From the sequence record PZ452591.1: a DNA stretch of 64,000 nt; one strand, given 5' to 3'. Numbering within the stretch: position 1 is the first letter of the stretch; each line of letters starts with the position of its first letter. The notes beneath the pieces are model-generated. The model was not told where the DNA came from. It saw only the letters and a program-made list of their open reading frames with translations, and did no database searches. This document shows positions 23,182 to 40,677 of the stretch, piece by piece. The translations under genes and the position numbers were made by a program. This DNA is from a phage.

Positions 23182-23184
23182 CAA

Positions 23185-23500: not shown

Positions 23501-23508
23501 TTTGTGTT

Positions 23509-23561
23509 CCTCATGTTATGTCAGTAAGAATACTATAACACAACACGAGGGACTTGTAAAC
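23509..23561 (-). repeat. 53-bp direct repeat copy 1 (partner at 39034..39086)
   Basis: cctcatgttatgtcagtaagaatactataacacaacacgagggacttgtaaac versus copy 2 with about 3 mismatches. Confidence 0.8.
23525..23561 (-). promoter_or_regulatory. T4 early-promoter-like element (GTTTAC - 17 bp - TTATAGT) with leader and GAGGAA SD
   Basis: Minus strand GTTTACAAGTCCCTCGTGTTGTGTTATAGTAT...ACATGAGGAACACAAAATG. Confidence 0.6.
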
Positions 23562-25618
23562 TACATTTTGAACTTTTTAGACATTCCGTTGATGTTAACC
23601 AAAGAAGCCAAGATTTGAGAAACTTCGTTTTCCTCTTCTTTTGATTCTTCTACAAGGAATTGATTAAATCCAGCCATTGGACGAACTTCACCAGTTTCCA
23701 TTAGATGGTCTCCATCATATACTGATTCTTCTAATTGTTCAGAAGGAGGAACGATTGTACCTTCAATTAGATACTTGTTATAAGCAGTTTCTTTCATAAA
23801 GTACGTACTTACTTTATTAATCTTCAGTAAAATTCCACGCGGTAGAATAACTTCAGCTTCTGATGGAAATCCTGATAAATGACCTGGAACGATAACTTTG
23901 ATTCGCTCAGCTCCTTTAATTACCATACCCACGCTAGTTTCAGCATCTTCATTAGCATATGTAGAATGACTACCCATATGCATCAAATCTTCTGCATCAA
24001 CGGAATCTTCTCCTTCACCAGAAAATACTGCGCCGGAATCATCTAGAGCCATATAGTTTTTACCATGCTCACCGAAGATATTTGGTTTAAGCGATGTGGA
24101 TACGAAGTTCTTGAAATAAAACATTTTATTTTCAATGTTATGACGCAAAGTTTTAAAGGTAACTTCTTGTCCACGGTAAAGCGTAGTTCCTGGAGGAAGA
24201 ACTGAACCTTTAGCGAATGCAGAATCCAACGTCTCGATGTGCTTAATAGCACGTTCCATATATTCTTCACGGGTAGAATCTGGTTTACCCAAAAGGAACG
24301 AGTTCATTTCAACATATGAATCAGCACAATAATCTTCAATTACGTCAGATTCAGCCTGAGTTAATCCTTTTGGAGTTACTTCGGTGCTTGCGTATTCATA
24401 CGCCTGGGCGGCAGATTCATTAATCAATTTATAAATGCCATTCATGACGAATTGAATAATAGCTGTCTTTTCATCTGGCGTGGCTTTAGAACCTTTAACT
24501 AAATCATTAATAATTTTCTTAATAACATCAAAGCTATTAGAAATATTAATGTCAGCAAGATCGCTTAAAATTTTATCAGTTTTATAATCAAAGAATTCTT
24601 TATTCTTTAAATATTCTTGAGAACCTTGATATGTTATATCGCTCTGCAGCTTGATAGATGGATCACGTAAACGCGCATGGGCCAATGCGATATGATTTCG
24701 GAAGTTTTCTAGTTCATAATCGCTAGATTTAAAACGAGAAGCACTCCTCATACCACCAATAGCTCCTTTGCTGAAGTTTGAACCAATCTGGATAACGCCA
24801 GAGTTCATTGGTCCTTCTGCTTTATATACCGGAACTTTAGATTCAAACTCTTGATATTTCTTGGCAGCGAAGCTATCACCCTGAAGTGAAGCATCGACAG
24901 TAGAATATTGAGCTTGTGCTGCTAATCGACGACTAATTTTAGTTTTCTGAATAACAGCTTGATCCGTGCGCTTATCATTTTCTAAAGCAATAGAAGCAGC
25001 AACAGCAACAGCTTTAGGAACAGCATTACCTGTTTTAACGTCTACATAAACATCACCGACCTTTGATTCAACTTTTGTGAATAACTCAGTTGAAATAGGA
25101 GGTACACCTGGAATGTCTTCTAAATTGGCATTTTTACGGTAAACCATAATATATGCATACTTTTTATCATAATCCCAGATTTCCTTTAAAAGAACATATC
25201 GACCTGCTCCTTTAGTACGTACTAAACGGTCAGCAATAACTTGCATTTGACGAGCTGCGCCATTTGTTTTACTTTTTAGTACGCGGAATAAGCATGCGTC
25301 GATTTTATACTGCTTCATTGTTTGAAGAGCAGTATCAAAAACCGCATTAATGACGCCAATTGGATTTCCACCCAAGTTTCTAAGCTTAACCAGCGATAAT
25401 TTCTCGTTGACGCCTATCATTACGATATGCATCATTTTATCGCCTGGCTTAACGTTTTTATTTGTATCACCGCCAGAGGTGTATGTACAAAATCTAAATC
25501 CAGGAAGCACACTTTCTTCGCCGGCTTGAATAGCAAAAATTTGTGGTATTTTATGCTTAGGATTTAAGTTAACAACCGGCGCCGAAGCGCCGTCAAATAA
25601 TTCTGTAATAAGTTCCAT
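23561..25618 (-). CDS. Alt-like ADP-ribosyltransferase paralog (685 aa)
   Basis: Same length as and N-terminal 220 aa highly similar to alt (MELITELFD...); C-terminal ART-like region with LYRG, FVSTS motifs; central region diverged. Confidence 0.85.
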   Translation of the reverse strand: MELITELFDGASAPVVNLNPKHKIPQIFAIQAGEESVLPGFRFCTYTSGGDTNKNVKPGDKMMHIVMIGVNEKLSLVKLRNLGGNPIGVINAVFDTALQTMKQYKIDACLFRVLKSKTNGAARQMQVIADRLVRTKGAGRYVLLKEIWDYDKKYAYIMVYRKNANLEDIPGVPPISTELFTKVESKVGDVYVDVKTGNAVPKAVAVAASIALENDKRTDQAVIQKTKISRRLAAQAQYSTVDASLQGDSFAAKKYQEFESKVPVYKAEGPMNSGVIQIGSNFSKGAIGGMRSASRFKSSDYELENFRNHIALAHARLRDPSIKLQSDITYQGSQEYLKNKEFFDYKTDKILSDLADINISNSFDVIKKIINDLVKGSKATPDEKTAIIQFVMNGIYKLINESAAQAYEYASTEVTPKGLTQAESDVIEDYCADSYVEMNSFLLGKPDSTREEYMERAIKHIETLDSAFAKGSVLPPGTTLYRGQEVTFKTLRHNIENKMFYFKNFVSTSLKPNIFGEHGKNYMALDDSGAVFSGEGEDSVDAEDLMHMGSHSTYANEDAETSVGMVIKGAERIKVIVPGHLSGFPSEAEVILPRGILLKINKVSTYFMKETAYNKYLIEGTIVPPSEQLEESVYDGDHLMETGEVRPMAGFNQFLVEESKEEENEVSQILASLVNINGMSKKFKM

Positions 25619-25621
25619 GAT

Positions 25622-27679
25622 TTATCCTTGAACGAACTTGTAAGGCATGTTTGTAATATCTATGCAAGACGCAATAATTCCAAGAGATGATTCTACTTTC
25701 TGTTTAACATTTGATGAAACAAATGATGCAAAGTCAACTCTGTCTTCTATTTCAATATCACCTGTCATTGCAACTACTTCGCCGGTTTCCATTAAATGGT
25801 CTCCGTCATAGATTACCGATTCGGTGAGCTCTTCTGTGGTCATAACTTCAGCTTGAATAAGCTTGTTGTTAGTTTTAACTGTTCCATCATTGTAAGATGC
25901 ATCGGTTATTTTATTAACTTTGACCATTAATCCACGTGGCAAAATGACTTCCATTTCATTTGAAGGTGCTAAACTTCCACCTGGTAAAACAACATTGACT
26001 TTATCAGCCCCAGTAATAACCCATCCAATTCCAACTAAATTATCGCTAGAATTTACTAGTCCTTCATCAGTTTTATCAATAGAAACACTTAAACGCTTTT
26101 CGTCTGGTAAAACACCCACAGATGAATCAGTCATCCAGGTACCAAAAATATTTGGATATAATGATGTTGACACAAAATTTCTAAAATAAAAAACTCGATT
26201 TTTTACCAGTGCTTCATATATTGAAGGTAACATTCGTTGTGAACGATACAAAGTAATACCTTTTGGTAATCGTTCACCATTTTTAAAGGCAGAATCTAAA
26301 TTATCAATAGCTTTTTCTATATCAGATGCTGTCAAAATACTTGTACGCTCATCTGGATTATATAATCCCAAAAGAGCGTTATTTATGTCTACATATCCTG
26401 AACCTACGTATTCACGAATTCCGCGTTTTTGTGCCGGTGTGTATTTAGATGAATCTTTATTTTCGACTATAGGATGTAGTGACCATCCAGCGGTAAGAGC
26501 ATATCCACGCAATTCTCTTCGAATAATCTTTGTTTTTATTGCATTCCAAGAATTTTGTACTAACTCATTCACAGCATCTTGATTTAAATGCGAATGCTTG
26601 TTAATGTTTCTTTCTAACCAAGCACCTTTATATTTTTCTAAAGTATCATCAACTATAGAAGCAATAGTTTCTAAAGTTTTTATTGAAGTAATAGATTCTT
26701 TTCGTAATCTTTCTAAAGCTTTATTTTTTATTTCTGCATTAACATCAGATTCTTTATCTTCAGGAATTATAGAAGCTTCTCTGAATGCCATTCCAGCTGT
26801 AACACTACTAAGAGCATTCTCTAATGCAAATCCTGAAGTAGAAATAACAGTTAATTCATTAGCATCAGAAATTAAAGGAGCGTCAGCAGGTTTATTTAAT
26901 TCTGCTGCTGAAGCCTCAAATTTTTGAAACATCGGCGTTTCAAATCTAGAAGATTCCAACGACTGACTTTGCGCAATTGCTCTACGGGAAATTTTAACTT
27001 TAACGATTACAGCTTGGTCAGAACGTTTATCGTTTTCTTGCGCAATAGATGCTGCAATTGCCTCGTTTTTAGTTACTTGAGCTCCAGTATCTTTATTGAT
27101 ATAAACATCACCGACCTTCGATTCAACCTTAGTAAAGAGCTCGGTACTAATTTCCGGAACTCCTGGAATGTCTTCTAGTGATACATTTTTGCGATGTATA
27201 AGAATATATGCATACTTTTTATCATAATCCCAGAGTTCCTTAAGAAGGACGTATCTTCCACCTGAACGACTACGGATAAGTCTATCAGCAATAACTTGAA
27301 TTTGTCGAGCTTGGCCAGCAGTTTTAGACTTAAGAATACGAAGCATACAAGCATCAATTTTATACTGACGCATTGTTTGCATTGCGACAGTAAAAACTGA
27401 ATTGATATAATTAATCGGGCTTGGACCAAGACCTTTTAATTTAGCAATTGAACCTTTAGCAGTTAATGTAAAAGGAACAATGTGCATCATTTTATCGCCC
27501 ATTTTTAAATCGCGATTAGTATCACCTCCAGATGTATAGGTACATAAACGAAAGCCTGGTTGTTCAATTGCATCATCAACGTGAACTGAAAAAATTTGTG
27601 GTATTTTCTTCTTTGGATTTAAGTTTGTAATCGGAAGAGTAGTATCTTCGTCAAATAATTCTGTAATGAGTTCCATCAT
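25622..27679 (-). CDS. alt: Alt, virion-packaged ADP-ribosyltransferase (685 aa)
   Basis: Close match to remembered T4 Alt throughout (MELITELFDEDTTLPITNL ... NMPYKFVQG); two adjacent ATGs at the start. Confidence 0.93.
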   Translation of the reverse strand: MMELITELFDEDTTLPITNLNPKKKIPQIFSVHVDDAIEQPGFRLCTYTSGGDTNRDLKMGDKMMHIVPFTLTAKGSIAKLKGLGPSPINYINSVFTVAMQTMRQYKIDACMLRILKSKTAGQARQIQVIADRLIRSRSGGRYVLLKELWDYDKKYAYILIHRKNVSLEDIPGVPEISTELFTKVESKVGDVYINKDTGAQVTKNEAIAASIAQENDKRSDQAVIVKVKISRRAIAQSQSLESSRFETPMFQKFEASAAELNKPADAPLISDANELTVISTSGFALENALSSVTAGMAFREASIIPEDKESDVNAEIKNKALERLRKESITSIKTLETIASIVDDTLEKYKGAWLERNINKHSHLNQDAVNELVQNSWNAIKTKIIRRELRGYALTAGWSLHPIVENKDSSKYTPAQKRGIREYVGSGYVDINNALLGLYNPDERTSILTASDIEKAIDNLDSAFKNGERLPKGITLYRSQRMLPSIYEALVKNRVFYFRNFVSTSLYPNIFGTWMTDSSVGVLPDEKRLSVSIDKTDEGLVNSSDNLVGIGWVITGADKVNVVLPGGSLAPSNEMEVILPRGLMVKVNKITDASYNDGTVKTNNKLIQAEVMTTEELTESVIYDGDHLMETGEVVAMTGDIEIEDRVDFASFVSSNVKQKVESSLGIIASCIDITNMPYKFVQG

Positions 27680-27699
27680 ATCCTCTCTAGTGTTTATTC

Positions 27700-27707
27700 T
27701 ATTTATA
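27700..27707 (-). promoter_or_regulatory. T4-type late promoter TATAAATA (alt)
   Basis: Exact motif on minus strand about 20 bp upstream of alt. Confidence 0.6.
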
Positions 27708-27730
27708 AAATTAAAGGCCCGAAGGCCTTT
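27700..27730 (-). terminator. Terminator-like hairpin between the 62-aa ORF and alt
   Basis: AAAGGCC-CGAA-GGCCTTT hairpin followed on minus strand by AATTTTAT. Confidence 0.6.
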
Positions 27731-27917
27731 AATAATCTAGTGGTAAGAGAGTACGATATATTTCAAACTTTGGACCTTTTTCATAGGCATCAAATGTTTC
27801 TGTAAATTTATTATAAGCATATGCATCTACAAATTCGAGAACGACTTGTGATACAGAAGTAGAAACATCTCCACCTTCTTTTTGAGCTACGACAACTGTT
27901 TCTAAGTAAGCTTTCAT
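27729..27917 (-). CDS. Hypothetical protein, 62 aa
   Basis: ORF between ligase and alt; overlaps ligase 3' end by 4 nt; terminator hairpin at its stop. Confidence 0.55.
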   Translation of the reverse strand: MKAYLETVVVAQKEGGDVSTSVSQVVLEFVDAYAYNKFTETFDAYEKGPKFEIYRTLLPLDY

Positions 27918-29377
27918 AAACCAGTTACCTCATGAAAATCACCAAATACATCCTCGAATGTATTAGCTTTAGTTTTATCTTCACGTAAACGAATCGCAAT
28001 CGGAAGAAATAATTTGACGTAATCAGTGCGGCCATCAGATTTTAACCAACCGTTACATTCGCACTCTAGAATTTTTCCAATATAATAATTTTGGTTTTCC
28101 ATAATGCGAGTACGGTCAAGTTCATGTGATTTTACGCCGACTTTATCTTTTAAGCCTGAACCGGCATTTACCTTAATTTTTCCACACTCTGACTCAAGAA
28201 TAAATCCACCTGCTTTAGTAGGGTCTTTACGGTGAGGATAAATTCCTACAATTTTTAAATCAACATCAATTACTTCTTTAAATTTATAGAGATTTTTCGA
28301 ACGAGCATTTTCCCATAATCCATCGATATTTTTGAGAATAATACCTTCAAGACCTTGGTCAATATACTTTTTATAAATTACCTTAGCTTCATCTAGGTTA
28401 TTTACTACCTGGTTTTCAATTAAAATTACTTTATCATAGCCTGATGTCATTTGTTCTAATTTAGAAAAACGTACATCATATTTCAAGCGAAATGCTGGAA
28501 GACCGTATATTTCTACCAACGGGACATAATCCCAGACCTGAAACTTCATGCATTGAGCTTCTTTTTCGGAAATGGTTCCCTTTAAAGATTTATTGGCGAT
28601 TCCATTAGAAGCAGTACGTGATTCAGCTACTTCGGCGAATTCTTTAACTTTACTGTTTTCAGGATAAGCATCAAAAAGAAAATCTAAGCCTTCTGGCTCC
28701 TTTTTAACTTGCTCATGGTATACCAATTCGCCATCAATTAACACACCTTCTGGATGAATCTGGCGGGCCTCAGCGGTCATTTTGATTAATTCTTCCTTAA
28801 GAAGATCTAATCCTAAATATTCATTGCCAGCTCGTGATAAAAGACGAACATCATCTAATTCATCACCTCTGACTTCGGCAAAGCACCGAGCCCCATCAGC
28901 TTTTAACTGGGCAAAAGCTGGAAATTTGATATTCTTATTAATGCCTTTTTCATCATAAGAACTTGCCAGCATTTGAGGTTGTTCAGGAATTAAACCTGGC
29001 CAAACTTTGTTTGCAATAGATACTGAAGCACCGCATTCAAGGTCTCGCATCATCACTCGACGCAAGACTTCAACATCATCCTTTTTACCATCGGCGATAT
29101 ATCCAGTTAATTCCTCAATTGCCGCATTTCCAGTCAATTTCCGAGTAGCTAACGTGAATTCAATGAAGTCAAGCATATCGGTAAGAGTCAACATTCCAAA
29201 ACTCTGGGTAGCAATACCAGGTTTAGGCCATTTCTTGATATAATACTGCAATCCACGAGAATAAGTCAGACGATATACCCGTTTAAGCAATTCATTATCT
29301 TTATTCTTTTCAAGAATTGCTTGCTTCTGCTTAGTTGAACCAATAGATGCTATTTCGTTCAGAATTTTAAGAATCAT
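27914..29377 (-). CDS. 30: ATP-dependent DNA ligase gp30 (487 aa)
   Basis: Matches T4 DNA ligase; adenylation motif KADGAR. Confidence 0.95.
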   Translation of the reverse strand: MILKILNEIASIGSTKQKQAILEKNKDNELLKRVYRLTYSRGLQYYIKKWPKPGIATQSFGMLTLTDMLDFIEFTLATRKLTGNAAIEELTGYIADGKKDDVEVLRRVMMRDLECGASVSIANKVWPGLIPEQPQMLASSYDEKGINKNIKFPAFAQLKADGARCFAEVRGDELDDVRLLSRAGNEYLGLDLLKEELIKMTAEARQIHPEGVLIDGELVYHEQVKKEPEGLDFLFDAYPENSKVKEFAEVAESRTASNGIANKSLKGTISEKEAQCMKFQVWDYVPLVEIYGLPAFRLKYDVRFSKLEQMTSGYDKVILIENQVVNNLDEAKVIYKKYIDQGLEGIILKNIDGLWENARSKNLYKFKEVIDVDLKIVGIYPHRKDPTKAGGFILESECGKIKVNAGSGLKDKVGVKSHELDRTRIMENQNYYIGKILECECNGWLKSDGRTDYVKLFLPIAIRLREDKTKANTFEDVFGDFHEVTGL

Positions 29378-29643
29378 TATTCATCCTTCAGAGTTTGGTT
29401 TACAGCTCTATTATAAATCAATTCATCATTAAGCTCAGTCAAAGACCTATGATATGTGGTTCTAACTTTATTTCCTTGCATCCAGTGCTTGACGTAAATG
29501 AAACCTTGCTCTACGCATTTTTTAAAAATTCGTTCGTCTTTTTGAGCTCGAAATTCTGGATTGCATCTAAAAAATTGATTTACGTGACCGTAATCACGTG
29601 TAGTATTACCTTCATTTTCATAAATAGTGTGAACAACAAACAT
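29377..29643 (-). CDS. Hypothetical protein (positional equivalent of T4 30.1), 88 aa
   Basis: ORF, synteny. Confidence 0.7.
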   Translation of the reverse strand: MFVVHTIYENEGNTTRDYGHVNQFFRCNPEFRAQKDERIFKKCVEQGFIYVKHWMQGNKVRTTYHRSLTELNDELIYNRAVNQTLKDE

Positions 29644-30497
29644 TAGAATGCTCCTTGGAAAATATTATCACCACTACCACTAGTAAGTCTATTAAAATAC
29701 CCTGCATCGCCAGGCTTAATATAACTCCATGTATGGAATGGATGCATCTGGTGTGAGTGCGTATAATATGGATGATATGGATTATAAGGATTAAATCCAG
29801 GAGTTCTCCAGGTAGTGTTCCAAGGAAAAGAATCGTTTTTAATCATCTTCTCAATTACATCTTTTATAGCTTTTTCACTATCAAAACTTTCTTTATTTTC
29901 CTTTGGTGAAAAAAGCTTATTCTCTACATCATTCCATGTATAAACTCGCTGAGCAGTTTTTGGAATATTGTCACGCTCCCCTCGAGCCATCCAATAAACA
30001 GGAACACTTAATATTTCACTCGCATGATCGCAGTGGTGAGCGAGATCGTCAATATAACAAATTACGTTATATTTCTCTTTTGCCTTTTTGAACAACTCTT
30101 CTTTTGAAGAATCATGACTACACATCAGTACTTCTGAGAAGGCACCAGGAAAAAGAGCATTCAAATTAAATTGACGATTCAGCAGAGCGTCAATAGAATC
30201 ACCCAGTGCTGTAACAGCTACAAAATTATAATCTTCTTTTAATTTATTGATTACACACAAGGCATCTTTATACGGAGACAAGTAACGAATAAAATCTGAA
30301 CGATTGTATTTTTCAATTAACTTGACGCCAAGTTCTTCATCACAATTAAAAAGTTTACCTGGAGAAATAAATTTCTCATCTTGTATCATTTTTAAAATAT
30401 GTTCTAACGGAAGATTATATTTCTGAGCAAAATAAGGAAGACCTGATTGCCAGCTTAAACATACTCCATCAATATCGGTTAAAATAGTAGGCTTCAT
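29643..30497 (-). CDS. HAD-superfamily-like protein with Pro/Tyr/His-rich C-terminal tail (positional equivalent of T4 30.2), 284 aa
   Basis: N-terminal ILTDIDGV resembles HAD motif I (DxDG); C-terminus NPYNPYHPYYTHSHQMHPFHTW low complexity. Confidence 0.7.
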   Translation of the reverse strand: MKPTILTDIDGVCLSWQSGLPYFAQKYNLPLEHILKMIQDEKFISPGKLFNCDEELGVKLIEKYNRSDFIRYLSPYKDALCVINKLKEDYNFVAVTALGDSIDALLNRQFNLNALFPGAFSEVLMCSHDSSKEELFKKAKEKYNVICYIDDLAHHCDHASEILSVPVYWMARGERDNIPKTAQRVYTWNDVENKLFSPKENKESFDSEKAIKDVIEKMIKNDSFPWNTTWRTPGFNPYNPYHPYYTHSHQMHPFHTWSYIKPGDAGYFNRLTSGSGDNIFQGAF

Positions 30498-30952
30498 AGA
30501 GAGTCTCTTAATAGGTTTAACACATCAATAAATTCAGCTTCGGTTAGTATTGTATCATCTTTTGTTAGACCACTAGCCATGCTGTGCTTCAAAACTTTTC
30601 CTTTCGAGGCTTGTAATGCATCACGAAAGCCCTTGTTTTGGATCGCTGCTTCAAAATATGCATTTGTGTATAATTCTTTCCACGCCGGGGAGTATCTTGA
30701 AAACGGAACTCCAAGCCAGAAGAGGGTCCCACGGTCCTGAGCTCTAGCATAAGACCTTCCAGCTTGTTGGGCGGCAAGCCCGGATAACCCAAATATACGA
30801 CGTTGTTGTTCAACATTTTTCACCTTGCATCCTTGGAGGAATCCTTCAAGACCTCCAAATTGAATACCATCCATAACGAAAGGCCAATGGGCGAAATTAC
30901 TTAATGCACATGATGGCCACCTAAAATTACTTCTAATCTCTAACTCAGACAT
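30494..30952 (-). CDS. NADAR/YbiA-like protein (positional equivalent of T4 30.3), 152 aa from first ATG
   Basis: ORF-track start is TTG; ATG two codons downstream; motif SNFAHWPF resembles FSNFAAWP of the YbiA/NADAR family. Confidence 0.65.
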   Translation of the reverse strand: MSELEIRSNFRWPSCALSNFAHWPFVMDGIQFGGLEGFLQGCKVKNVEQQRRIFGLSGLAAQQAGRSYARAQDRGTLFWLGVPFSRYSPAWKELYTNAYFEAAIQNKGFRDALQASKGKVLKHSMASGLTKDDTILTEAEFIDVLNLLRDSL

Positions 30953-31632: not shown

Positions 31633-31673
31633 AATAATTTCCTCAGTAAGGGGCTGAAGCCCCTCATTTTATT

Positions 31674-32039: not shown

Positions 32040-32106
32040 TTTATTCTCCAAGATGTTTAATTTCGGTACAGGTATATAATATCATGTCCTGTACCAAAGT
32101 AAACAA

Positions 32107-32439
32107 TTATTTTACTACTTTCCAATGCTGCATGTCAAGTTTACCAACTTTTTTCATCTTCTCAATTAAGCGTTCAGCACGTTGGCGAGCTGTAACATAA
32201 TGCCATTCGCCTAATTCATTTTGTTCAATTTTTCCAACGATTACTGTATTCAATTCATAAATCCAACCAGTAAAGAAATTATGAACTTGAACTGTAAAGG
32301 TGAAATCTGTTCCCATACCTTCTGTTGTTTCTACTTCAATAATATCACCTTCAACTGCCATTAAGAACCACATAGTTTCATTATATTTACCATTGAAGCA
32401 TTTAGTTTTAACTGTAGCGTTCAGATTAATCGTTTTCAT
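32107..32439 (-). CDS. Hypothetical protein, 110 aa
   Basis: ORF with ATG start; early-promoter-like element upstream. Confidence 0.65.
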   Translation of the reverse strand: MKTINLNATVKTKCFNGKYNETMWFLMAVEGDIIEVETTEGMGTDFTFTVQVHNFFTGWIYELNTVIVGKIEQNELGEWHYVTARQRAERLIEKMKKVGKLDMQHWKVVK

Positions 32440-32461
32440 TTTATTCTCCTTTGTTTGTGTA

Positions 32462-32498
32462 AGATAATACTATCACAAAGGAACCGTTACTGTAAACA
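32462..32498 (-). promoter_or_regulatory. Early-promoter-like element (GTTTAC ... ATAGTAT) upstream of the 110-aa ORF
   Basis: Consensus-like -35 and -10. Confidence 0.5.
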
Positions 32499-32517
32499 AC
32501 TTTGTGCAATCTTTGGA

Positions 32518-32545
32518 AAATAAAAAAGGACTCCCGAAGGAGTCC
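32518..32545 (-). terminator. Rho-independent terminator after the small basic protein gene
   Basis: GGACTCC-CGAA-GGAGTCC hairpin followed by TTTTTT on minus strand. Confidence 0.8.
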
Positions 32546-32550
32546 TCAAC

Positions 32551-32727
32551 TTATGCTTTCTGCTTACCAAAACGAGAAGCATCATCTCGAAGAACCGCAC
32601 GTGCTCGGCGCATGATCTTCTCAACAGTTTGATTGATACGAGAGTTCGACCCACGCTTGTAACCAGCGCGTTTAGAATCACCAACTTTCTTTTCAACTGC
32701 TTTCTTTGCTTTAGCTTGTTTTGCCAT
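32551..32727 (-). CDS. Small highly basic protein, about 58 aa (MAKQAKAKKAVEKK...); alternative upstream ATG at 32769
   Basis: Lys/Arg-rich ORF followed by a strong rho-independent terminator; start uncertain. Confidence 0.55.
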   Translation of the reverse strand: MAKQAKAKKAVEKKVGDSKRAGYKRGSNSRINQTVEKIMRRARAVLRDDASRFGKQKA

Positions 32728-33014
32728 TATAAATTCTCTTTTAAATGAAAATGCAGGACTTATTGGCATTGCCTGCGAAAGCCCTCAAGGGGAACATAGG
32801 TTTTGAATATTTACCGACAGGATAACCATAAACCTCGTCATCATACCACCAAGACTTACACAGATAACACTTTTCTGACGCATGATAGTAACATTCAAGA
32901 GGTACACCGTAAAACTGTCGGGGTCTTAAAACTATAATGATTCGCAAATCATTAATCAGACAGTTCGACGGCTCCTCGATTTAGCTCACACTAAGGCAGT
33001 GAATCTCCAATAAA

Positions 33015-33263
33015 TTACTTCAATGTTACCACAAAGTGACGAACTGCTTTTCGTGCAGCAGAAGCCAGAGGCTTAGCATACTTAAGTTCATCTTTTTCCT
33101 GAAGCTCAGCAGCTAATGCAGTTTGAGCAGGATTCAGATGTTTGAAATAACGCAGGATTTCAAGAGCTTCGGCTTCAACATCAATAGATGCGCCATAGTT
33201 TTCGTGACCATTATTCCATGCGTTTCGTTGCAGTTCAAGAGCGTGTTGTAATTGTTTAATCAT
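33015..33263 (-). CDS. rIII: rIII lysis inhibition accessory protein (82 aa)
   Basis: 82 aa, helical, positioned next to gene 31 as in T4. Confidence 0.7.
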   Translation of the reverse strand: MIKQLQHALELQRNAWNNGHENYGASIDVEAEALEILRYFKHLNPAQTALAAELQEKDELKYAKPLASAARKAVRHFVVTLK

Positions 33264-33402
33264 TTAAAAATTCTCGTTAGAGATTAAAACTCGGTAGTCA
33301 CGTTCTTCTGAATTTCATCTTCTTTCGACAGATCTCTCAGTTGTAGACTACCACATAGAATTGTTCGGTTAACTTATTATTCCGACACCCAATTCATATT
33401 AT

Positions 33403-33410
33403 TATTTATA
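33403..33410 (-). promoter_or_regulatory. Late-promoter-like TATAAATA upstream of rIII
   Basis: Exact motif on minus strand in the 31-rIII gap. Confidence 0.5.
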
Positions 33411-33746
33411 TCACTTATAAAGACACGGAATAGCTTTATAGTGACAAGTAACGAATTTTTGTTTAATTTCTTTTGGCTGCTTAAGACCCAGAGCTACAAA
33501 AGGATGCGGAACATTTCGAATTTGACCAACTGGAAGAGAAGTCAAATCACCAACTTCGCAGAAACCTTCAGGAACATCAGGACCGACAGAGTGAACTACA
33601 CACAGTTCAGGAACTTCACCTTGAACACGTTTACCGATAATAAGTCCTGATTCTGTAACTTCTTCATCACCGGCTTGTGCAGGTTCAGAAACTAAAATAA
33701 CATATTCACCGACAGCACGAATTGGTAGCTGTTGTACTTCAGACAT
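33411..33746 (-). CDS. 31: Co-chaperonin gp31 (GroES-like, 111 aa)
   Basis: 111 aa, matches T4 gp31 length and N-terminus [19 protein letters not shown]. Confidence 0.9.
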
Positions 33747-33802
33747 CGTTTTTCCTTTCTGTTAACAGATGAATTAATAATAACAAATAATTCTTAAAGC
33801 AT

Positions 33803-34111
33803 TTATTTACCAATAAATTGGAGCAAATGCTCAACTTTCATACCATTAACGGAAATCAATTTGTCAATAGAAAAACCTCGCCACGCACCAAGTTCAACAT
33901 CAAATACTGGAATCATGTCAGTAGATTCTTTCCTAGTAGATTCCGTCAATTTACCAGTTTGCATGGTTGGCATAAAGTCTGCATCACGAGTACCTTTCAT
34001 AACACGAATAGTACCATCAGACTTTTCAAAAACTACGTTTGAAACACCCATGGACAATTTAGTTTTCAAAATTTCACGAATTGCTACTTTTTGTTCAGTC
34101 GTCAGTTTCAT
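33803..34111 (-). CDS. Hypothetical protein, 102 aa
   Basis: ORF, synteny between 31 and cd. Confidence 0.65.
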   Translation of the reverse strand: MKLTTEQKVAIREILKTKLSMGVSNVVFEKSDGTIRVMKGTRDADFMPTMQTGKLTESTRKESTDMIPVFDVELGAWRGFSIDKLISVNGMKVEHLLQFIGK

Positions 34112-34348
34112 TTATTTACCTATTACAGTTTTAATATGAGTTGTTCCACGTTCTTTAAGAGTGGAAAGTAATTTTTGGCATTTTTCTAAATCAGATTTCC
34201 AACTATATGGTCTATCATTACAAACCCAATTTGTCTTATAATACTGTTTCCATTTAGAGAAAAAATATTTCTTATACTCTACAGCAAATGAGATGTTCTC
34301 GTTAGAATAAGAACTAATTGCTGTGAGCTTTACCAAACGAAATTTCAT
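34112..34348 (-). CDS. Hypothetical protein, 78 aa
   Basis: ORF, synteny. Confidence 0.6.
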   Translation of the reverse strand: MKFRLVKLTAISSYSNENISFAVEYKKYFFSKWKQYYKTNWVCNDRPYSWKSDLEKCQKLLSTLKERGTTHIKTVIGK

Positions 34349-34929
34349 TATTCACCACAGAATTCGTTGATATTTTCCCAGTTTAACTTATTCAAGTTTT
34401 TCTTAGGAACATTAAACACTTCAATACCTGCATTTCGCAGAATATCATCCCAGCCAGGTTTATTTTTATCGTATGTTTCGCAATAAACCAGCTTTTTAAT
34501 TCCAGATTGAGCTATCGCTTTTGCGCAATCTGGACATGGAGAAAGTGTTACATACATAGTAGCACCTTCAATAGAAGAACCATTTCGTGCAGCAAACAAA
34601 ATTGCATTTAGTTCAGCATGAATTTCATTTTTAGATGACCATTCCGAGTGAGCACTACGATGTTCTTTCGCCAAGACAAAACGATCAGTTGAACCAAATG
34701 ATACGCATTCAGGCTTATGACCTTGAATGATAGTATGTTTAGGCTTATTCAACAACCAACCTTGCTCAGCAGCATAATCACAACAGTTCACACCCCCTGC
34801 AGGTGAACCATTATACCCAGTAGAAATAATACGTCCATTCTTTTCAATTACTGCTCCTACCTTCCAGGAGCAACATTTTGATTCCTGCGATACTAAATAT
34901 GCAATTTGAAGTACTGTACTCGCTTTCAT
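34348..34929 (-). CDS. cd: dCMP deaminase (193 aa)
   Basis: Cytidine/deoxycytidylate deaminase zinc motifs HAE ... PCPDCAKAI; 193 aa as T4 Cd. Confidence 0.93.
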   Translation of the reverse strand: MKASTVLQIAYLVSQESKCCSWKVGAVIEKNGRIISTGYNGSPAGGVNCCDYAAEQGWLLNKPKHTIIQGHKPECVSFGSTDRFVLAKEHRSAHSEWSSKNEIHAELNAILFAARNGSSIEGATMYVTLSPCPDCAKAIAQSGIKKLVYCETYDKNKPGWDDILRNAGIEVFNVPKKNLNKLNWENINEFCGE

Positions 34930-35264
34930 TTCATAATCACCAGATAAGCAGATTTAGCAGTTTCAACCCGATAAATTTCGTGACGAAGTTTAGTTATACT
35001 TTTAATAACAGAACTAATTATATTCTGCCCATCTTTAAAGCGGTTTTTCTTATCAATAAAAACGGCGCCAGTCATCTTTTTGTGAAGCTCAACCGGATAC
35101 TTCGTCACAATAATAGCATCATACACAGAAGGATGAATACTATTCACCAGAGTATCATTCATTAAAGTTATTCTAATGAACTTTGCTGTTTCAGAGTCAA
35201 GCGCTCTATGATCGCCAGTATCATTTTCAAGACAATTATCAATTATATCAGTTAAATTCATCAT
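34926..35264 (-). CDS. Hypothetical protein, 112 aa
   Basis: ORF with 4-nt overlap to cd. Confidence 0.65.
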   Translation of the reverse strand: MMNLTDIIDNCLENDTGDHRALDSETAKFIRITLMNDTLVNSIHPSVYDAIIVTKYPVELHKKMTGAVFIDKKNRFKDGQNIISSVIKSITKLRHEIYRVETAKSAYLVIMK

Positions 35265-35500
35265 AGTACGCCATACACCCTTTGTGCTTCAACTAATCCA
35301 TCAAAATCCAGTTTAAGATGCGATATTTGATCGCCATCACCTGGATTCACAATTACTAATACTGAACGAGGAGTTTCGGTAATAACACGAACCGATGTTT
35401 CAGGAAATCGTTCAGAAACCTTATTTACTAATTCCTGTGCAAATAGTTTAACTTTTTCTTGGAATTCTTTAACAGTAATTGGTTTTTCACTTAGCAGCAT
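35261..35500 (-). CDS. Hypothetical protein, 79 aa
   Basis: ORF. Confidence 0.6.
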   Translation of the reverse strand: MLLSEKPITVKEFQEKVKLFAQELVNKVSERFPETSVRVITETPRSVLVIVNPGDGDQISHLKLDFDGLVEAQRVYGVL

Positions 35501-36021
35501 GTTGATCCCAGCTCCTTACTTTCAACGTTTTTAACTAATTTGACAGAAACTAATTCAGCATCTTGAGTAATCATTACCGGACCTTCTTCATACTCTTCAA
35601 GATATTCTAGAGCTTTCTTTTTAGCTTCTTCCTTCGTATCAGTTTGAGCATAGATATAAAACATACAACCAGTAATACCTACTACTTTCCACTTAATTTC
35701 TTTATCAGTTTTAATTTCAAATTTACTGACAGAATCATCTTTTTGAACTTCTTCGAAAAAAGAATATTCTAACATATAAGCAATTGAAAATAACGGGCTA
35801 TCTTTATAGCATTCACCCATTACATCAACAGCTTTATACCAGCAGTCATCAATTTCGCGTTTAATGCTAATAACATTTTTCGCAAGATCTATTTTTACTT
35901 TAAATGAATTTTCCCCAATAAACTGGGCAATTCGTTTATTAGCCCCGCAAGTTTCATTAAAAATATCTTTATACCCAGTTTTAAAGCGATAAACCTTATC
36001 TTCTTCAAACCATTCGCTCAT
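35491..36021 (-). CDS. Hypothetical protein, 176 aa
   Basis: ORF with early-promoter-like element upstream. Confidence 0.7.
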   Translation of the reverse strand: MSEWFEEDKVYRFKTGYKDIFNETCGANKRIAQFIGENSFKVKIDLAKNVISIKREIDDCWYKAVDVMGECYKDSPLFSIAYMLEYSFFEEVQKDDSVSKFEIKTDKEIKWKVVGITGCMFYIYAQTDTKEEAKKKALEYLEEYEEGPVMITQDAELVSVKLVKNVESKELGSTCC

Positions 36022-36044
36022 TTCAATTTCCTCATTTGTTTTGG

Positions 36045-36082
36045 TAGAGCTATAATATCACAACTCTACCGTAAAGTAAACC
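36045..36082 (-). promoter_or_regulatory. Early-promoter-like element (GTTTAC - 17 bp - ATATTAT) upstream of the 176-aa ORF
   Basis: Consensus-like -35 and -10 with GAGGAA SD. Confidence 0.5.
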
Positions 36083-36083
36083 A

Positions 36084-36359
36084 TTAAATCGCTTTGAATT
36101 CCGCAGTTTGAGATTCAAAGCGAATGTCGCCTTTGATAGCTAGCTCAGCATCAAGACCGAATACAACAATGATATGCGCGGAACCTGGATACAACGTAAT
36201 GGCAATAGAATCCACCTGGTCTGGAAGCAAAGTGTTCAATACATGAGTCACTTGAGCGTGGATTCGAAGCTCAGCTGCGTTATCAAGTTTTTCAAACATA
36301 TTATTAGCGATAATTTGGCTAAACACTACTTCTACGATTTTAGAGTAAGTCGGAAACAT
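36084..36359 (-). CDS. Hypothetical protein, about 91 aa from first ATG
   Basis: ORF-track start is TTG; ATG at codon 11. Confidence 0.6.
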   Translation of the reverse strand: MFPTYSKIVEVVFSQIIANNMFEKLDNAAELRIHAQVTHVLNTLLPDQVDSIAITLYPGSAHIIVVFGLDAELAIKGDIRFESQTAEFKAI

Positions 36360-36361
36360 AT

Positions 36362-36554
36362 TTACCTCGCATAATTTTCTTCGAGCCAATCAATAACATC
36401 CAAAGCGTTATCAAAAGTTGCGCCATCTACTTTGTCTTCTGTTTCATAATCAAGAACATCTAGGCCTACTCTTCCGTCAACAATAGGCCATAGACAAAAT
36501 AGATATTTCTTTTCTTTTTCAATTTTATCACAAAGACGATAAATCTTTTCTAGG

Positions 36555-36562
<8 letters not shown>
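36362..36562 (-). CDS. Hypothetical protein, 66 aa
   Basis: ORF with ATG start. Confidence 0.55.
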
Positions 36563-37657
<1,095 letters not shown>

Positions 37658-37885
37658 TTATTTTTTCTCAACCAGTGATTGAATATAATCATGCAGGTCT
37701 TTAGATGCTTTGCCCCACTTATTTTGATATTCATTTTTGAGATTAGCACGTGATTGAGCTAATAAAACATCATTAGTTGGAGGTAAAGATTCTAACCGCT
37801 GAATCTGGCGTCCATAAATCATTGCAGCCATCTCGGATTCATAAATCAATCCTTTGAGATGTTCAAATTGATGCCATGAAATCAT
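37658..37885 (-). CDS. Hypothetical protein (positional equivalent of T4 pseT.1), 75 aa
   Basis: ORF. Confidence 0.65.
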   Translation of the reverse strand: MISWHQFEHLKGLIYESEMAAMIYGRQIQRLESLPPTNDVLLAQSRANLKNEYQNKWGKASKDLHDYIQSLVEKK

Positions 37886-38181
37886 TTACATTTATCCTCT
37901 TTTAACTCTTGACGATAATAGCATATCATAGTTTTCTGGTCATGTACATATCGTTTTACATCATTAAGCCAAATACGAAATTCCTGAGAATCTTCAAATG
38001 GCATACCGACCCAAGCTTTACCATCGATAACTTTAACTTGCCAAGATAGTTTAGCTTCGTCATATGACTTTATCTGTACAGGCCAATTAGGATGAACTGT
38101 TTCTTTCTTTACTTCTAGAGGCTTTGTCGAACAACCAACTAGAAGACCAATAGATAATATTACTGCTGATAGTTTAATCAT
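37882..38181 (-). CDS. Outer-membrane spanin (o-spanin) lipoprotein, 99 aa
   Basis: Signal peptide with lipobox LLVGC; overlaps upstream i-spanin by 4 nt; corresponds to T4 pseT.2. Confidence 0.8.
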   Translation of the reverse strand: MIKLSAVILSIGLLVGCSTKPLEVKKETVHPNWPVQIKSYDEAKLSWQVKVIDGKAWVGMPFEDSQEFRIWLNDVKRYVHDQKTMICYYRQELKEDKCK

Positions 38182-38531
38182 TTAGAAAGGTCCTGGATGT
38201 CTTCTGCGAACTTGTTGAAGGAGTTGTTGATTTGTTTTTCAACCAATCCTGGCTTATGAGCCACCACATCCGCCTTCTTTGCGTCTTTGCGCAGTTTTTC
38301 ATTTTCACGCTCAATAGCAGCAATTGCCTCACGATTTTTATTATTCATCGCATCAATATAATTATACTGAATTCGCAAATTATTTAATGCTAAAGCGTTT
38401 TCATTGGCTGTTTTTGTAATTTCAGTAACTGATGTTTCTAATCTTTCTACCTTATTTTTTAAAATAATAGATGTTCCGCCAAATGCTATTACAAGTAATA
38501 GCAATCCAGCTGTAAAATTACTTACATGCAT
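38178..38531 (-). CDS. Inner-membrane spanin (i-spanin), 117 aa
   Basis: N-terminal TM helix AGLLLLVIAFGGTSIIL followed by coiled-coil; corresponds to T4 pseT.3. Confidence 0.8.
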   Translation of the reverse strand: MHVSNFTAGLLLLVIAFGGTSIILKNKVERLETSVTEITKTANENALALNNLRIQYNYIDAMNNKNREAIAAIERENEKLRKDAKKADVVAHKPGLVEKQINNSFNKFAEDIQDLSK

Positions 38532-39028
38532 AAAGTTTTAATAACCTCTATAATATCGTCTTGAGAAAGACCGTTAATTAAAATATGATGTTCAGCTGGA
38601 GATTTAGAAATTTTAAAGCATGCCTCAACATCTTCTGCCATATCCGATGCACTACGATTTGGATTACTAATTCCAAGACGATGTTTTCCCGTTAAAGGAT
38701 TAACAATGATATAGCATTTGCAGCTATTGATATGAACATTGGGTTGAGTCTGATTAATGAACACTTCACAATCATACTTAGCGAGTTGATTTTCTAAAAA
38801 GACTTTCATCTCTTCAACCGCATCAGGAAGCATATCACGGGCTTGCTCAAGACGACGATTTCGATATTCTTTAATGGTCGTTTTCCGCTTGACTTGCTTA
38901 GCTAAATCTTTCTTAAGATCGGTGATATATCCAACTCGACGATTTCCTTTGAATACAGAAATCCCATCTGTAGTATCACCGTATGCTTCAACGACCATTT
39001 CAATAGTAATAAGCTGCAAATCCATCAT
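38522..39028 (-). CDS. alc: Alc (unf), host transcription elongation-termination factor (168 aa)
   Basis: Size and position between pseT region and rnlA as in T4. Confidence 0.7.
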   Translation of the reverse strand: MMDLQLITIEMVVEAYGDTTDGISVFKGNRRVGYITDLKKDLAKQVKRKTTIKEYRNRRLEQARDMLPDAVEEMKVFLENQLAKYDCEVFINQTQPNVHINSCKCYIIVNPLTGKHRLGISNPNRSASDMAEDVEACFKISKSPAEHHILINGLSQDDIIEVIKTLCM

Positions 39029-39033
39029 AAAGT

Positions 39034-39086
39034 CCTCATGTTATGCCAGTAAGACTACTGTAACACAACACGAGGGACTTGTAAAC
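39034..39086 (-). repeat. 53-bp direct repeat copy 2 (partner at 23509..23561)
   Basis: cctcatgttatgccagtaagactactgtaacacaacacgagggacttgtaaac. Confidence 0.8.
39050..39086 (-). promoter_or_regulatory. T4 early-promoter-like element upstream of alc (near-identical copy of the 23525..23561 element)
   Basis: Minus strand GTTTACAAGTCCCTCGTGTTGTGTTACAGTAG...CATGAGGACTTTATG. Confidence 0.55.
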
Positions 39087-39089
39087 AGC

Positions 39090-40677
<1,588 letters not shown>

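What the first reader, a model, noticed from the sequence alone, without database searches (positions are those of the whole stretch)
23509..39086. 53-bp near-identical direct repeats about 15.5 kb apart (early promoter plus leader) bracketing the alt-30-cd-pseT block
The sequences at 23509..23561 and 39034..39086 differ at about 3 of 53 positions and sit in the same orientation, each just upstream of a minus-strand gene (the 96-aa ORF and alc). Each contains a GTTTAC -35, a 17-bp spacer, an extended -10 and a GAGG SD, so they read as conserved T4 early promoter/leader cassettes. Besides regulation, such direct repeats are substrates for homologous recombination that could delete or amplify the intervening 15.5 kb, and may mark module boundaries.
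Basis: seen in the sequence. Interest (0 to 1): 0.45.

Follow-up and report, generated by a model that had tools for sequence, protein, structure and literature searches.

The report
Duplicated T4 early promoter-hairpin cassette
The two 54-bp repeats are two copies of one early promoter-plus-leader cassette that T4 and all its close relatives carry in front of genes alt.-3 and alc; the cassette also encodes a hairpin that hides the ribosome-binding site, and the copies look to be kept alike by copying between the two sites, so this is a fuller description of a known kind of phage regulatory element, not a new system.

Summary
The repeat is real. It is 54 bp, at 23508-23561 and 39033-39086, with 51/54 bases identical, in direct orientation, and none is expected by chance.

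The window is a T4-like phage (genus Tequatrovirus). T4 itself has the same pair (53/54), and about 500 sequenced relatives carry two copies each, at the same two sites.

Each copy reads G-TTTACA-N17-TGn-TATAGT, then a short leader and a GAGGA Shine-Dalgarno (SD). It lies directly between the stop codon of the upstream gene (alt paralog / rnlA) and the start of alt.-3 / alc. The pair is far more alike (51/54) than any other early-promoter pair in the window (34/54 or less).

The promoter spacer pairs with the leader and SD in an 18-22 bp RNA hairpin (-24 to -29 kcal/mol). RNA started at the cassette's own promoter lacks the 5' arm.

At alc this spacer-SD hairpin recurs in about 10 lineages with compensatory changes. 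At alt.-3 only Tequatrovirus has it. Other genera carry a different cassette there, so the alc-type cassette replaced it.

Variants shared by the two copies point to continuing gene conversion.

The closest known kinds are PeSL cassettes and T4's hairpin-gated genes e and I-TevI. Interest is moderate.

The parts
23508..23561 (-). Repeat copy A: early promoter + leader + SD cassette in front of alt.-3
   Evidence: cassette position n = coordinate 23562 - n
39033..39086 (-). Repeat copy B: the same cassette in front of alc (51/54 identical to A)
   Evidence: cassette position n = coordinate 39087 - n
23555..23560 (-). -35 hexamer TTTACA of copy A (the preceding G at 23561 is the last base of the alt-paralog TAG stop)
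   Evidence: sequence
23532..23537 (-). -10 hexamer TATAGT of copy A, preceded by TGT (extended -10); predicted start about 23525 (A, 7 nt downstream; inferred, not mapped)
39080..39085 (-). -35 hexamer TTTACA of copy B
39057..39062 (-). -10 hexamer TACAGT of copy B with TG upstream; predicted start about 39050 (inferred)
23537..23550 (-). 5' arm of the copy A hairpin (CCUCGUGUUGUGUU), lying in the promoter spacer and therefore upstream of the predicted start
   Evidence: Folds
23509..23522 (-). 3' arm of the copy A hairpin (GACAUAACAUGAGG), which includes the Shine-Dalgarno GAGG at 23509-23512
   Evidence: hairpin -23.7 to -24 kcal/mol, z -4.1, 0/200 shuffles as stable
39030..39080 (-). Whole hairpin of copy B (22 pairs). 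Its base extends 3 nt beyond the repeat: AAGUCC pairs with GGACUU. SD GAGG at 39034-39037.
   Evidence: -26 to -28.9 kcal/mol, z -4.7, 0/200 shuffles as stable
23210..23500 (-). alt.-3 (96 aa), the gene driven by copy A
   Evidence: 98-100% to T4 Alt.-3; function unknown and dispensable (PMC11618068)
38522..39028 (-). alc (inhibitor of host transcription), the gene driven by copy B; the T4 annotation starts at the second ATG (39025)
23561..25618 (-). Second full-length alt paralog. Its stop codon abuts copy A, so it is the source of read-through RNA.
   Evidence: (D1)
39090..40250 (-). rnlA (gene 63). Its stop is 3 nt before copy B, so it is the source of read-through RNA.
27700..27707 (-). 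Late-promoter motif TATAAATA upstream of alt. No minus-strand terminator-like site lies between it and copy A.
23184..23205 (.). Two-way terminator-like hairpin between gene 54 and alt.-3, which closes the alt.-3 transcription unit

Best explanation
Each repeat is one copy of a compact early regulatory cassette. It holds a strong sigma-70 T4-type early promoter (G-TTTACA, 17-bp spacer, TGn, TATAGT), about 17 nt of leader, and the Shine-Dalgarno GAGGA. It sits directly between the stop codon of the upstream gene and alt.-3 (copy A) or alc (copy B).

The cassette is a quasi-palindrome. The promoter spacer (5' arm, CCUCGUGUUGUGUU) is complementary to the leader plus SD (3' arm, GACAUAACAUGAGG). 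The -10 box and the start site sit at the tip.

RNA that enters from the upstream gene contains both arms. That RNA would be late alt transcripts for copy A and rnlA transcripts for copy B. It folds into an 18-22 bp hairpin that buries the SD. RNA started at the cassette's own promoter begins inside the hairpin, lacks the 5' arm, and has an open SD.

The most likely function is therefore a promoter-dependent translational gate. Alc, and in Tequatrovirus also Alt.-3, would be translated mainly from their own immediate-early transcripts and poorly from read-through RNA. The hairpin may also dampen read-through.

The two copies are nearly identical because the alc-type cassette replaced the older alt.-3 cassette in the Tequatrovirus lineage by ectopic recombination. 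Occasional non-crossover gene conversion between the 54-bp homologies has kept exchanging variants since then.

Shown here: the repeat, the promoter consensus, the predicted hairpin and its covariation, the distribution across phages, and the variants shared by the two copies. Inferred: the start site, the translational effect, and the conversion mechanism.
For: Promoter: both copies match the consensus with a 17-bp spacer and TG before the -10.

Not just consensus: 51/54 identity, against 34/54 or less for the other 44 promoter pairs in the window.

Distribution: T4 has both copies at 53/54. 500 Tequatrovirus records hold 999 places. In about 90 records both copies are identical to the base.

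Hairpin: -24 and -28.9 kcal/mol, z -4.1 and -4.7, with 0/200 shuffles as stable. The 25-nt leaders that start at the predicted start site are unstructured (0 and -0.8 kcal/mol).

Conservation at alc:
- 22 of 30 distinct alc cassettes, from about 10 lineages, pair the spacer with the SD using different sequences. Examples are UCCUCAUUUUGUUG/CAACAAAAUGAGGA, CUCCGUUU/AAACGGAG and UCCCAUUUUG/CAAAAUGGGGA.
- The cognate spacer-leader duplex averages -17.5 kcal/mol, against -10.1 for non-cognate pairings.
- In the 8-sequence seed alignment 96% of cells pair and 4 pairs carry compensatory changes, against 34-53% paired when the partner columns are slid.
- A covariance model built without any Tequatrovirus sequence finds both window copies (36.6 and 33.3 bits, E 3e-5 and 1.7e-4).

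Replacement at alt.-3: in Dhakavirus, Mosigvirus, Marfavirus, Kanagawavirus, Gelderlandvirus and the VR25 group, alt.-3 has a promoter at the same site but of another type. That type has a small hairpin inside the spacer and a free SD. Its identity to the same genome's alc cassette is only 55-74%, against 93-100% in Tequatrovirus.

Selection on the hairpin in copy A: the copy-A-only haplotype C11T/C15T/G16A makes the stem continuous with the alt.-3-specific flank (-25.7 against -23.0 kcal/mol). One genome pairs C15T with G50A, which converts C-G to U-A.

Conversion:
- The two-site haplotype G29A+G32A, usually at copy A only, sits at both sites in PP01, five UFV phages, ZCEC15 and G28.
- 6 variant types are shared between 14 types at A and 11 at B, against 0.95 expected (P = 5e-5; P = 0.0025 counting transitions only).
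- Independently, phage VR5 has an alc promoter joined to 32 nt identical to its own alt.-3 leader.

Read-through is plausible: a late-promoter motif lies upstream of alt, and there is no terminator-like site before either cassette.

Precedent: T4 e and I-TevI use a promoter inside an SD-sequestering hairpin (PMC3014915).
Against: - No transcription start, RNA structure or translation measurement was available, so the gate is an inference from anatomy.
- The dyad is nearly perfect Watson-Crick in most genera and folds equally well on either strand (sense -18.5, antisense -18.1 kcal/mol; 26 G-U pairs each). An RNA-level role cannot be separated from a DNA-level role by sequence alone. Only in Tequatrovirus is the sense strand clearly favoured (-24.4 against -15.4).
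- 8 of 30 distinct alc cassettes lack SD pairing. In 3 of these the stem only brackets the -10. RB69-type phages have none.
- Many other T4-type early promoters have spacer/downstream inverted repeats that do not reach the SD. The stem may therefore have a more general role, for example as an attenuator, as proposed for PeSLs.
- A ribosome terminating at the adjacent upstream stop codon could open the base of the stem, so read-through RNA may be translationally coupled, not silent.
- Several stem polymorphisms are disruptive (G18A, T19A, G16T, C12A).
- Shared variants could partly reflect parallel selection. G29A creates a perfect TATAAT.
Confidence: 0.55

Rival explanations
1. The stem-loop is a transcription attenuator or terminator, or a 3'-end stabiliser, for RNA coming from the upstream gene. 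This is the role proposed for PeSL stem-loops. Pairing with the SD would be incidental.
For: Arbiol et al. describe PeSL stem-loops between or overlapping the -35 and -10 boxes and report terminator activity for one of them (PMC2839356). One GenBank annotator's terminator predictor called a terminator over copy A in phage SA20RB. Spacer/downstream inverted repeats are general among 43 early promoters, with cognate duplexes at -11.2 against -6.7 kcal/mol (P = 4e-6), and many do not include the SD.
Against: No U-tract follows the stem in copy A or in most genera (AACACAAAAUG, UAUUAAAAUG, UUAACAAUG). The terminator scan finds nothing at either cassette. At alc the 3' arm ends on the SD in about 10 lineages despite complete sequence turnover, which an attenuator does not require.
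Confidence: 0.2
2. The two copies are alike only because both are held at one optimal promoter/leader sequence by purifying or convergent selection, with no exchange between the sites.
For: The consensus haplotype is the most common at both sites: 258 records and 338 places. G29A improves the -10 to TATAAT and could arise in parallel. Genus-wide divergence is only about 2%.
Against: Other strong early promoters in the same genome share no spacer or leader sequence with this pair (34/54 or less). Orthologous sites in six other genera have working-looking promoters that are only 55-74% alike. A linked two-site haplotype and six shared variant types occur at both sites. VR5 shows a clear chimera.
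Confidence: 0.1
3. One reading: the repeats act mainly as crossover substrates that delete, amplify or swap the 15.5-kb alt-30-cd-pseT block and mark a module boundary.
For: 54 bp is about the homology length T4 recombination can use (Singer et al. 1982, as cited in PMC2839356). PeSL pairs do produce excised circles in RB49/phi1.
Against: The block contains genes 30 and 31, which are essential in T4 by established knowledge. Almost every one of the 500 records keeps both sites (999 places). Gene order is the same in genera whose two cassettes are unlike. The rearrangements seen nearby do not have their endpoints in the repeat: the T4 alt-paralog deletion ends about 20 bp upstream of copy A, and G28 carries a 351-bp tandem duplication with an illegitimate junction.
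Confidence: 0.07
4. The dyad acts on DNA, for example as a hairpin in single-stranded DNA or a cruciform that influences promoter opening, replication or recombination, and not on RNA.
For: There is no strand asymmetry across genera. Compensatory changes preserve Watson-Crick pairing, which serves DNA equally well. The PeSL authors speculated that a DNA-binding recombination factor recognises the stem-loops.
Against: In Tequatrovirus 3 of 18 pairs are G-U, which pair only on the sense RNA (-24.4 against -15.4 kcal/mol). Arms of 10-14 bp with loops of 12-20 nt extrude poorly as cruciforms (general knowledge). The systematic inclusion of the SD has no DNA-level rationale.
Confidence: 0.08

Closest known systems
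PeSL (promoter-early stem-loop) cassettes of T4-like phages (Arbiol et al. 2010, PMC2839356; Comeau et al. 2014, PMC4122927)
   Same: [quoted passage not shown] It holds a sigma-70-type early promoter (PST/T4 consensus TTTACW-N17-TAYWAT), a stem-loop placed between or overlapping the promoter boxes, and an SD at the 3' end. It is repeated within a genome and recombines with other copies.
   Different: There are only two copies, at fixed sites beside conserved genes and not in hyperplastic regions. The copies are 15.5 kb apart with essential genes between them, so only non-crossover exchange can survive. The 3' arm of the stem is the SD itself, and no U-tract follows. I could not see the PST/T4 figure, so I do not know whether these two sites were listed as PeSLs.
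Hairpin-gated translation of T4 gene e, I-TevI, soc and 49 (reviewed in Uzan & Miller 2010, PMC3014915)
   Same: Long upstream transcripts fold so that the ribosome-binding site is sequestered. A promoter placed within the DNA encoding the 5' arm gives shorter transcripts that lack that arm and are translated.
   Different: In those cases the internal promoter is a late (gp55) promoter and the gate delays translation. Here it is an early sigma-70 promoter whose own spacer forms the 5' arm, so the gate would confine translation to the early, self-promoted RNA. This was not tested experimentally. alc is not mentioned in that review (0 occurrences).
T4 early ('über' UP/-35/TGn/-10) promoters (Hinton 2010, PMC2988021)
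   Same: GTTTAC -35, TGn extended -10 and TAnnnT -10, located in front of an immediate-early gene (alc).
   Different: The ordinary consensus does not constrain the spacer or the leader. Here all 54 bp are shared by the two sites.
Concerted evolution of dispersed repeats by ectopic gene conversion
   Same: Paralogous copies share derived polymorphisms and are more alike within a genus than orthologous sites are between genera.
   Different: The unit is only 54 bp and regulatory. The conversion events are inferred from 13 genomes plus haplotype counts, not from a full phylogenetic test.

Membership tests
T4-type early (sigma-70) promoter | -35 GTTTAC(A), 17-bp spacer, TGn, -10 TAnnnT | tested here: met
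   TTTACA / 17 / TATAGT (10 of 12) and TACAGT (9 of 12), both with TG before the -10
T4-type early (sigma-70) promoter | Transcript 5' end a few nt downstream of the -10, present immediately after infection without phage protein synthesis | not testable with these tools
   No 5'-end data found in the available literature; Miller et al. 2003 promoter tables could not be retrieved
T4-type early (sigma-70) promoter | A/T-rich UP element upstream of the -35 | tested here: inconclusive
   The 30 nt upstream are coding sequence. I counted about 70% A+T by eye in both copies (sequences); no genome background was computed for comparison.
PeSL cassette | Early promoter, stem-loop and SD packed between an upstream stop codon and a downstream ATG | tested here: met
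PeSL cassette | Stem-loop works as a terminator or attenuator | tested here: inconclusive
   No terminator-like site by the consensus scan and no U-tract; activity cannot be measured here
PeSL cassette | Many copies concentrated in hyperplastic regions next to indels | tested here: not met
   Two copies per genome at fixed, syntenic sites; other early promoters share only the general architecture
PeSL cassette | Recombination between copies | tested here: met
   Indirect only: shared haplotypes and variants and the VR5 chimera. No junction molecules were examined.
Promoter-inside-hairpin translational gate (T4 e / I-TevI type) | SD or start codon base-paired in transcripts from upstream | tested here: met
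   In silico only; covariation
Promoter-inside-hairpin translational gate (T4 e / I-TevI type) | The internal promoter's transcripts lack the 5' arm | tested here: met
   By position of the predicted promoter. The 5' arm is cassette positions 12-25 and the predicted start is position 37. The start site is not mapped.
Promoter-inside-hairpin translational gate (T4 e / I-TevI type) | The internal promoter is a late (TATAAATA) promoter | tested here: not met
   No TATAAATA in either cassette; the promoter is of early sigma-70 type
Promoter-inside-hairpin translational gate (T4 e / I-TevI type) | Measured loss of translation from the long RNA | not testable with these tools
   Needs reporter fusions, toeprinting or ribosome profiling

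The most novel reading that the evidence does not exclude
In T4-like phages the spacer of an early sigma-70 promoter doubles as the anti-Shine-Dalgarno arm of an RNA hairpin. A gene (alc everywhere, alt.-3 in Tequatrovirus) would then be translated only from RNA made at its own promoter and stay silent on the abundant read-through RNA of later periods. This 54-bp 'self-gating' cassette was copied whole from alc to alt.-3, and gene conversion across 15 kb of essential genes keeps the copies alike.
Probability: 0.4. Interest if true: 0.55.

Novelty: new member of a known kind. Interest (0 to 1): 0.4.

Why it matters
If the gate works as proposed, it explains three things:
- how T4 confines Alc, its inhibitor of host transcription, to the first minutes of infection even though no terminator separates alc from rnlA;
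- why 'neutral' promoter-spacer bases are conserved;
- what at least one class of PeSL stem-loops is for.

It would also be a clean natural example of a portable promoter-plus-translation-gate module, and of concerted evolution of a 54-bp regulatory element in a lytic phage.

Practically, alt.-3 has just become relevant to anti-phage defence, because C-terminal extension mutants escape CmdTAC (PMC11618068). Knowing how its expression is wired is therefore useful.

If the gate does not work, the finding is an ordinary pair of related early promoters already present in T4.

Tried and rejected
- RNAalifold on a plain MAFFT alignment of 16 alc cassettes gave no structure. The stems slide by 1-3 nt relative to the -35 and ATG anchors. 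I replaced it with a register-consistent 8-sequence seed, a covariance model and a cognate-versus-non-cognate duplex test.
- A strand-asymmetry test meant to separate RNA from DNA was inconclusive.
- Rfam has no match anywhere in the window.
- Literature searches for T4 transcription-start maps gave nothing usable. Miller et al. 2003 and the supplement of the PST PeSL paper could not be retrieved.
- A third perfect copy in phage G28 looked like cassette mobility but is a 351-bp local tandem duplication.
- RegB (GGAG) and MotA-box readings were considered and dropped. The SD is GAGG, and no TGCTT box sits at -30 (sequence).
- The mini-ORF starting at the ATG of CATGAGGA (4-5 codons, ending in ATGA over the gene start in both copies) has no SD of its own and a roughly 12-nt leader. 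I judged it coincidental.
- A leader-only similarity between the RB69 alt.-3 and alc cassettes (ATCAACAACAYGAGGA) was not counted as conversion, because similar leaders occur at other early genes.
Full report
**Observation.** The repeat is present as described. A 54-mer search with up to 3 mismatches finds two and only two copies in the window, at 23508-23561 and 39033-39086. They lie on the same strand and differ at 3 positions. None is expected in shuffled sequence. The repeat finder reports the same pair with a spacing of 15,525 bp. Pairwise alignment shows that similarity ends sharply on both sides. Read on the minus strand, the unit begins with the G of GTTTAC and ends with the A of GAGGA.

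Copy A lies between the TAG stop of a 685-aa alt paralog and the 96-aa alt.-3 ORF. Copy B lies between the rnlA stop and alc.

**Where the window comes from, and how widespread the pair is.** The flanks match about 500 Tequatrovirus genomes (T6, RB3, Ozark and others) at about 98% identity, with no exact match. T4 itself (AF158101) carries both copies, 53/54 identical to each other, upstream of alt.-3 and alc. A blastn search with the 54-mer against 50,697 phage records hits 500 records and 999 places. That is two copies per genome, and essentially all hits are T4-type (Tequatrovirus) records.

The repeat is not a ubiquitous consensus. Among the ten GTTTAC-type promoter-like sites in the window, this pair shares 51/54 positions, the next best pair shares 34/54, and the median is 23.

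**Promoter anatomy.** The consensus scan calls both copies: TTTACA, a 17-bp spacer, TG, and TATAGT (A) or TACAGT (B). This fits the T4 early 'UP/-35/TGn/-10' class reviewed by Hinton (PMC2988021) and the PST/T4 PeSL consensus TTTACW-N17-TAYWAT (PMC4122927). The start site, about 7 nt after the -10, is inferred. I found no 5'-end data in the papers available to me.

When 81 nt around each copy are folded as minus-strand RNA, the cassette forms a long hairpin.

| Copy | Free energy (kcal/mol) | z-score | Shuffles as stable |
|---|---|---|---|
| A | -24 | -4.1 | 0 of 200 |
| B | -28.9 | -4.7 | 0 of 200 |

- The 5' arm (CCUCGUGUUGUGUU, cassette positions 12-25) is the promoter spacer.
- The 3' arm (GACAUAACAUGAGG, positions 40-53) is the leader and includes the Shine-Dalgarno GAGG.
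- The -10 box and the predicted start sit at the tip.
- RNA beginning at the predicted start lacks the 5' arm and is unstructured (0 and -0.8 kcal/mol).
- T4's copies fold the same way.

**Is the hairpin conserved?** I collected alc loci from 39 IMG/VR contigs covering many T4-like lineages and from annotated genomes of RB69, Marfa, IME523 and Melville.

- In 22 of 30 distinct alc cassettes the bases just after GTTTACA are the exact complement of the SD-containing leader, and the sequences differ between lineages. Examples are TCCTCATTTTGTTG/CAACAAAATGAGGA, TCCTCATCAG/CTGATGAGGA, TCTCCATTTGGTT/AACCAAATGGAGA, CCTCTCGTTTTTG/CAAAAACGAGAGG and ATCCCATTTTGTT/AACAAAATGGGGAT.
- Spacer-leader duplexes average -17.5 kcal/mol for cognate pairs and -10.1 for non-cognate pairs.
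- In a register-consistent 8-sequence alignment, 96% of cells pair and four pairs carry double (compensatory) changes. Slid controls give 34-53% pairing.
- A covariance model built from those eight non-Tequatrovirus sequences finds both window copies (36.6 and 33.3 bits) and both T4 copies.
- Three cassettes have a stem that only brackets the -10. Five have no such stem, among them RB69-type phages.

**The alt.-3 site in other genera.** Gene order 54 / alt.-3 / alt ... alc / rnlA is conserved, and both intergenic gaps are about 60 bp in every genus examined. Outside Tequatrovirus, however, the alt.-3 cassette is of a different type. It has a small hairpin inside the spacer, itself with compensatory changes (ACCACA/UGUGGU, GCAC/GUGC, CAUCC/GGAUG, UCCACA/GUGGA), and a free SD.

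Identity from -35 to SD between the two cassettes of one genome is 0.55-0.74 in those genera and 0.93-1.0 in Tequatrovirus. The simplest reading is that the alc-type cassette overwrote the alt.-3 cassette in the Tequatrovirus ancestor.

**Continuing exchange between the copies.** In 13 Tequatrovirus genomes with both copies read, six variant types occur at both sites, out of 14 types at A and 11 at B. The expected number is 0.95 (P = 5e-5; P = 0.0025 if only transitions are allowed).

Haplotype counts from perfect-match blastn:

| Haplotype | Records | Places |
|---|---|---|
| Consensus | 258 | 338 |
| T27C | 115 | 118 |
| G29A+G32A | 42 | 54 |

G29A+G32A is usually confined to copy A. It occupies both sites in PP01, five UFV phages, ZCEC15 and G28, and copy B alone in a few others.

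In the separate lineage of phage VR5 (a relative of JS98), the alc cassette has the JS98-type alc promoter joined near the -10 to 32 nt identical to VR5's own alt.-3 leader.

Selection on the hairpin is also visible in copy A. The copy-A-only haplotype C11T/C15T/G16A makes the stem continuous with the alt.-3-specific flank (-25.7 against -23.0 kcal/mol). One genome combines C15T with G50A, a C-G to U-A swap. Some polymorphisms are disruptive, so the signal is not clean.

**Likely mechanism.** Read-through RNA is expected at both sites. A late-promoter motif sits upstream of alt (27700-27707), with no minus-strand terminator-like site before copy A. None lies between rnlA and alc either. A strong two-way terminator follows alt.-3.

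Read-through RNA would therefore carry the full hairpin with a buried SD, and self-initiated RNA would not. This is the logic established for T4 e and I-TevI, where a promoter lies inside an SD-sequestering hairpin (PMC3014915). The difference is that the internal promoter here is early, so the gate would confine translation to the early period.

I rate the translational reading at roughly 0.4-0.5. The alternatives are an attenuator role as proposed for PeSL stem-loops (PMC2839356), translational coupling through a ribosome terminating at the adjacent stop codon, or a DNA-level role. The strand-asymmetry test could not separate RNA from DNA across genera.

**Comparison with what is known.** The cassette fits the PeSL definition in composition. 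[quoted passage not shown] It differs in copy number, in genomic setting, and in having the SD as the 3' arm. Spacer/downstream dyads are general in these phages: over 43 promoters, cognate duplexes average -11.2 against -6.7 kcal/mol for non-cognate pairs (P = 4e-6).

The pair exists in T4, whose genome and promoters have long been catalogued. I could not check whether the near-identity or the SD pairing was noted before. alc is absent from the post-transcriptional control review.

On crossovers, genes 30 and 31 lie between the copies, and almost every record keeps both sites. Deletion or amplification via these repeats is therefore not a realistic viable outcome.

**Verdict.** This is a known kind of element (a PeSL-type early promoter cassette), already present in T4. 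Three additions are well supported: an SD-sequestering dyad conserved at alc, cassette replacement at alt.-3, and signs of gene conversion. Interest is moderate.

Noticed in passing
window 32104, 36081, 47456, 52063 and 48180 (minus strand); also L015-L018, L007, L011: Many GTTTAC-type early promoters carry a 6-11 bp inverted repeat with one arm in the spacer and the other just downstream of the -10 (for example GGTACAGG..TATTAT..CCTGTACC). Over 43 promoters, cognate spacer/downstream duplexes average -11.2 against -6.7 kcal/mol for non-cognate pairs (Mann-Whitney P = 4e-6). This probably corresponds to the PeSL stem-loops 'overlapping the -10 box'. Their function is unresolved.
   Followed up: partly
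L007 18007-18067, L015 451-510, L016 402-463, L018 413-471, L011 15892-15953, L086: alt.-3 promoters outside Tequatrovirus have a small hairpin wholly inside the -35/-10 spacer, with compensatory changes between genera (ACCACA/TGTGGT, CACA/TGTG, CATCC/GGATG, GCAC/GTGC, TCCACA/GTGGA).
   Followed up: partly
window 23561-25618 and 25622-27679: The window has two full-length alt paralogs (685 aa each, about 71% DNA identity in repeat family D1). T4 keeps only remnants of the second one (alt.-1 and alt.-2). The T4 deletion ends about 20 bp upstream of copy A, and the annotated T4 alt.-2 ORF runs into the cassette.
   Followed up: partly
L027 (phage vB_EcoM-G28) 19845-20249: A 351-bp tandem duplication of the rnlA 3' end, the cassette and the first ~150 nt of alc gives a third perfect cassette copy and a truncated alc' ORF.
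   Followed up: yes
L009-L011, L034, L035, L063 (VR25 group): alc is preceded by a diverged partial duplicate of its own N-terminal ~55 codons (51% identity) in place of a GTTTAC promoter directly upstream. A GGGG..CCCC stem and another promoter lie further up.
   Followed up: no
L012 (phage VR5) 1677-1736: Chimeric alc cassette: a JS98-type alc promoter joined near the -10 to 32 nt identical to VR5's own alt.-3 leader, SD and start.
   Followed up: yes
window 23501-23517 and 39025-39039 (minus strand): The ATG inside CATGAGGA opens a 4-5 codon mini-ORF that ends in a TGA overlapping the main start (ATGA) in both copies. It has no SD of its own and is probably coincidental.
   Followed up: no
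window 11546-12121; 47318-47409 and 48028-48119: Two other repeats reported by the repeat finder: a 288-bp tandem pair (76% identical), and a 92-bp pair (82% identical) covering the 5' ends and SD regions of two neighbouring minus-strand genes.
   Followed up: no
GenBank records OR584013 (Pseudomonas phage PsgM02F) and PV654520 (vB_PSGBLB0006): Records labelled as Pseudomonas phages match this Tequatrovirus region at about 98% and carry both cassettes. This may reflect host mislabelling or contamination.
   Followed up: no
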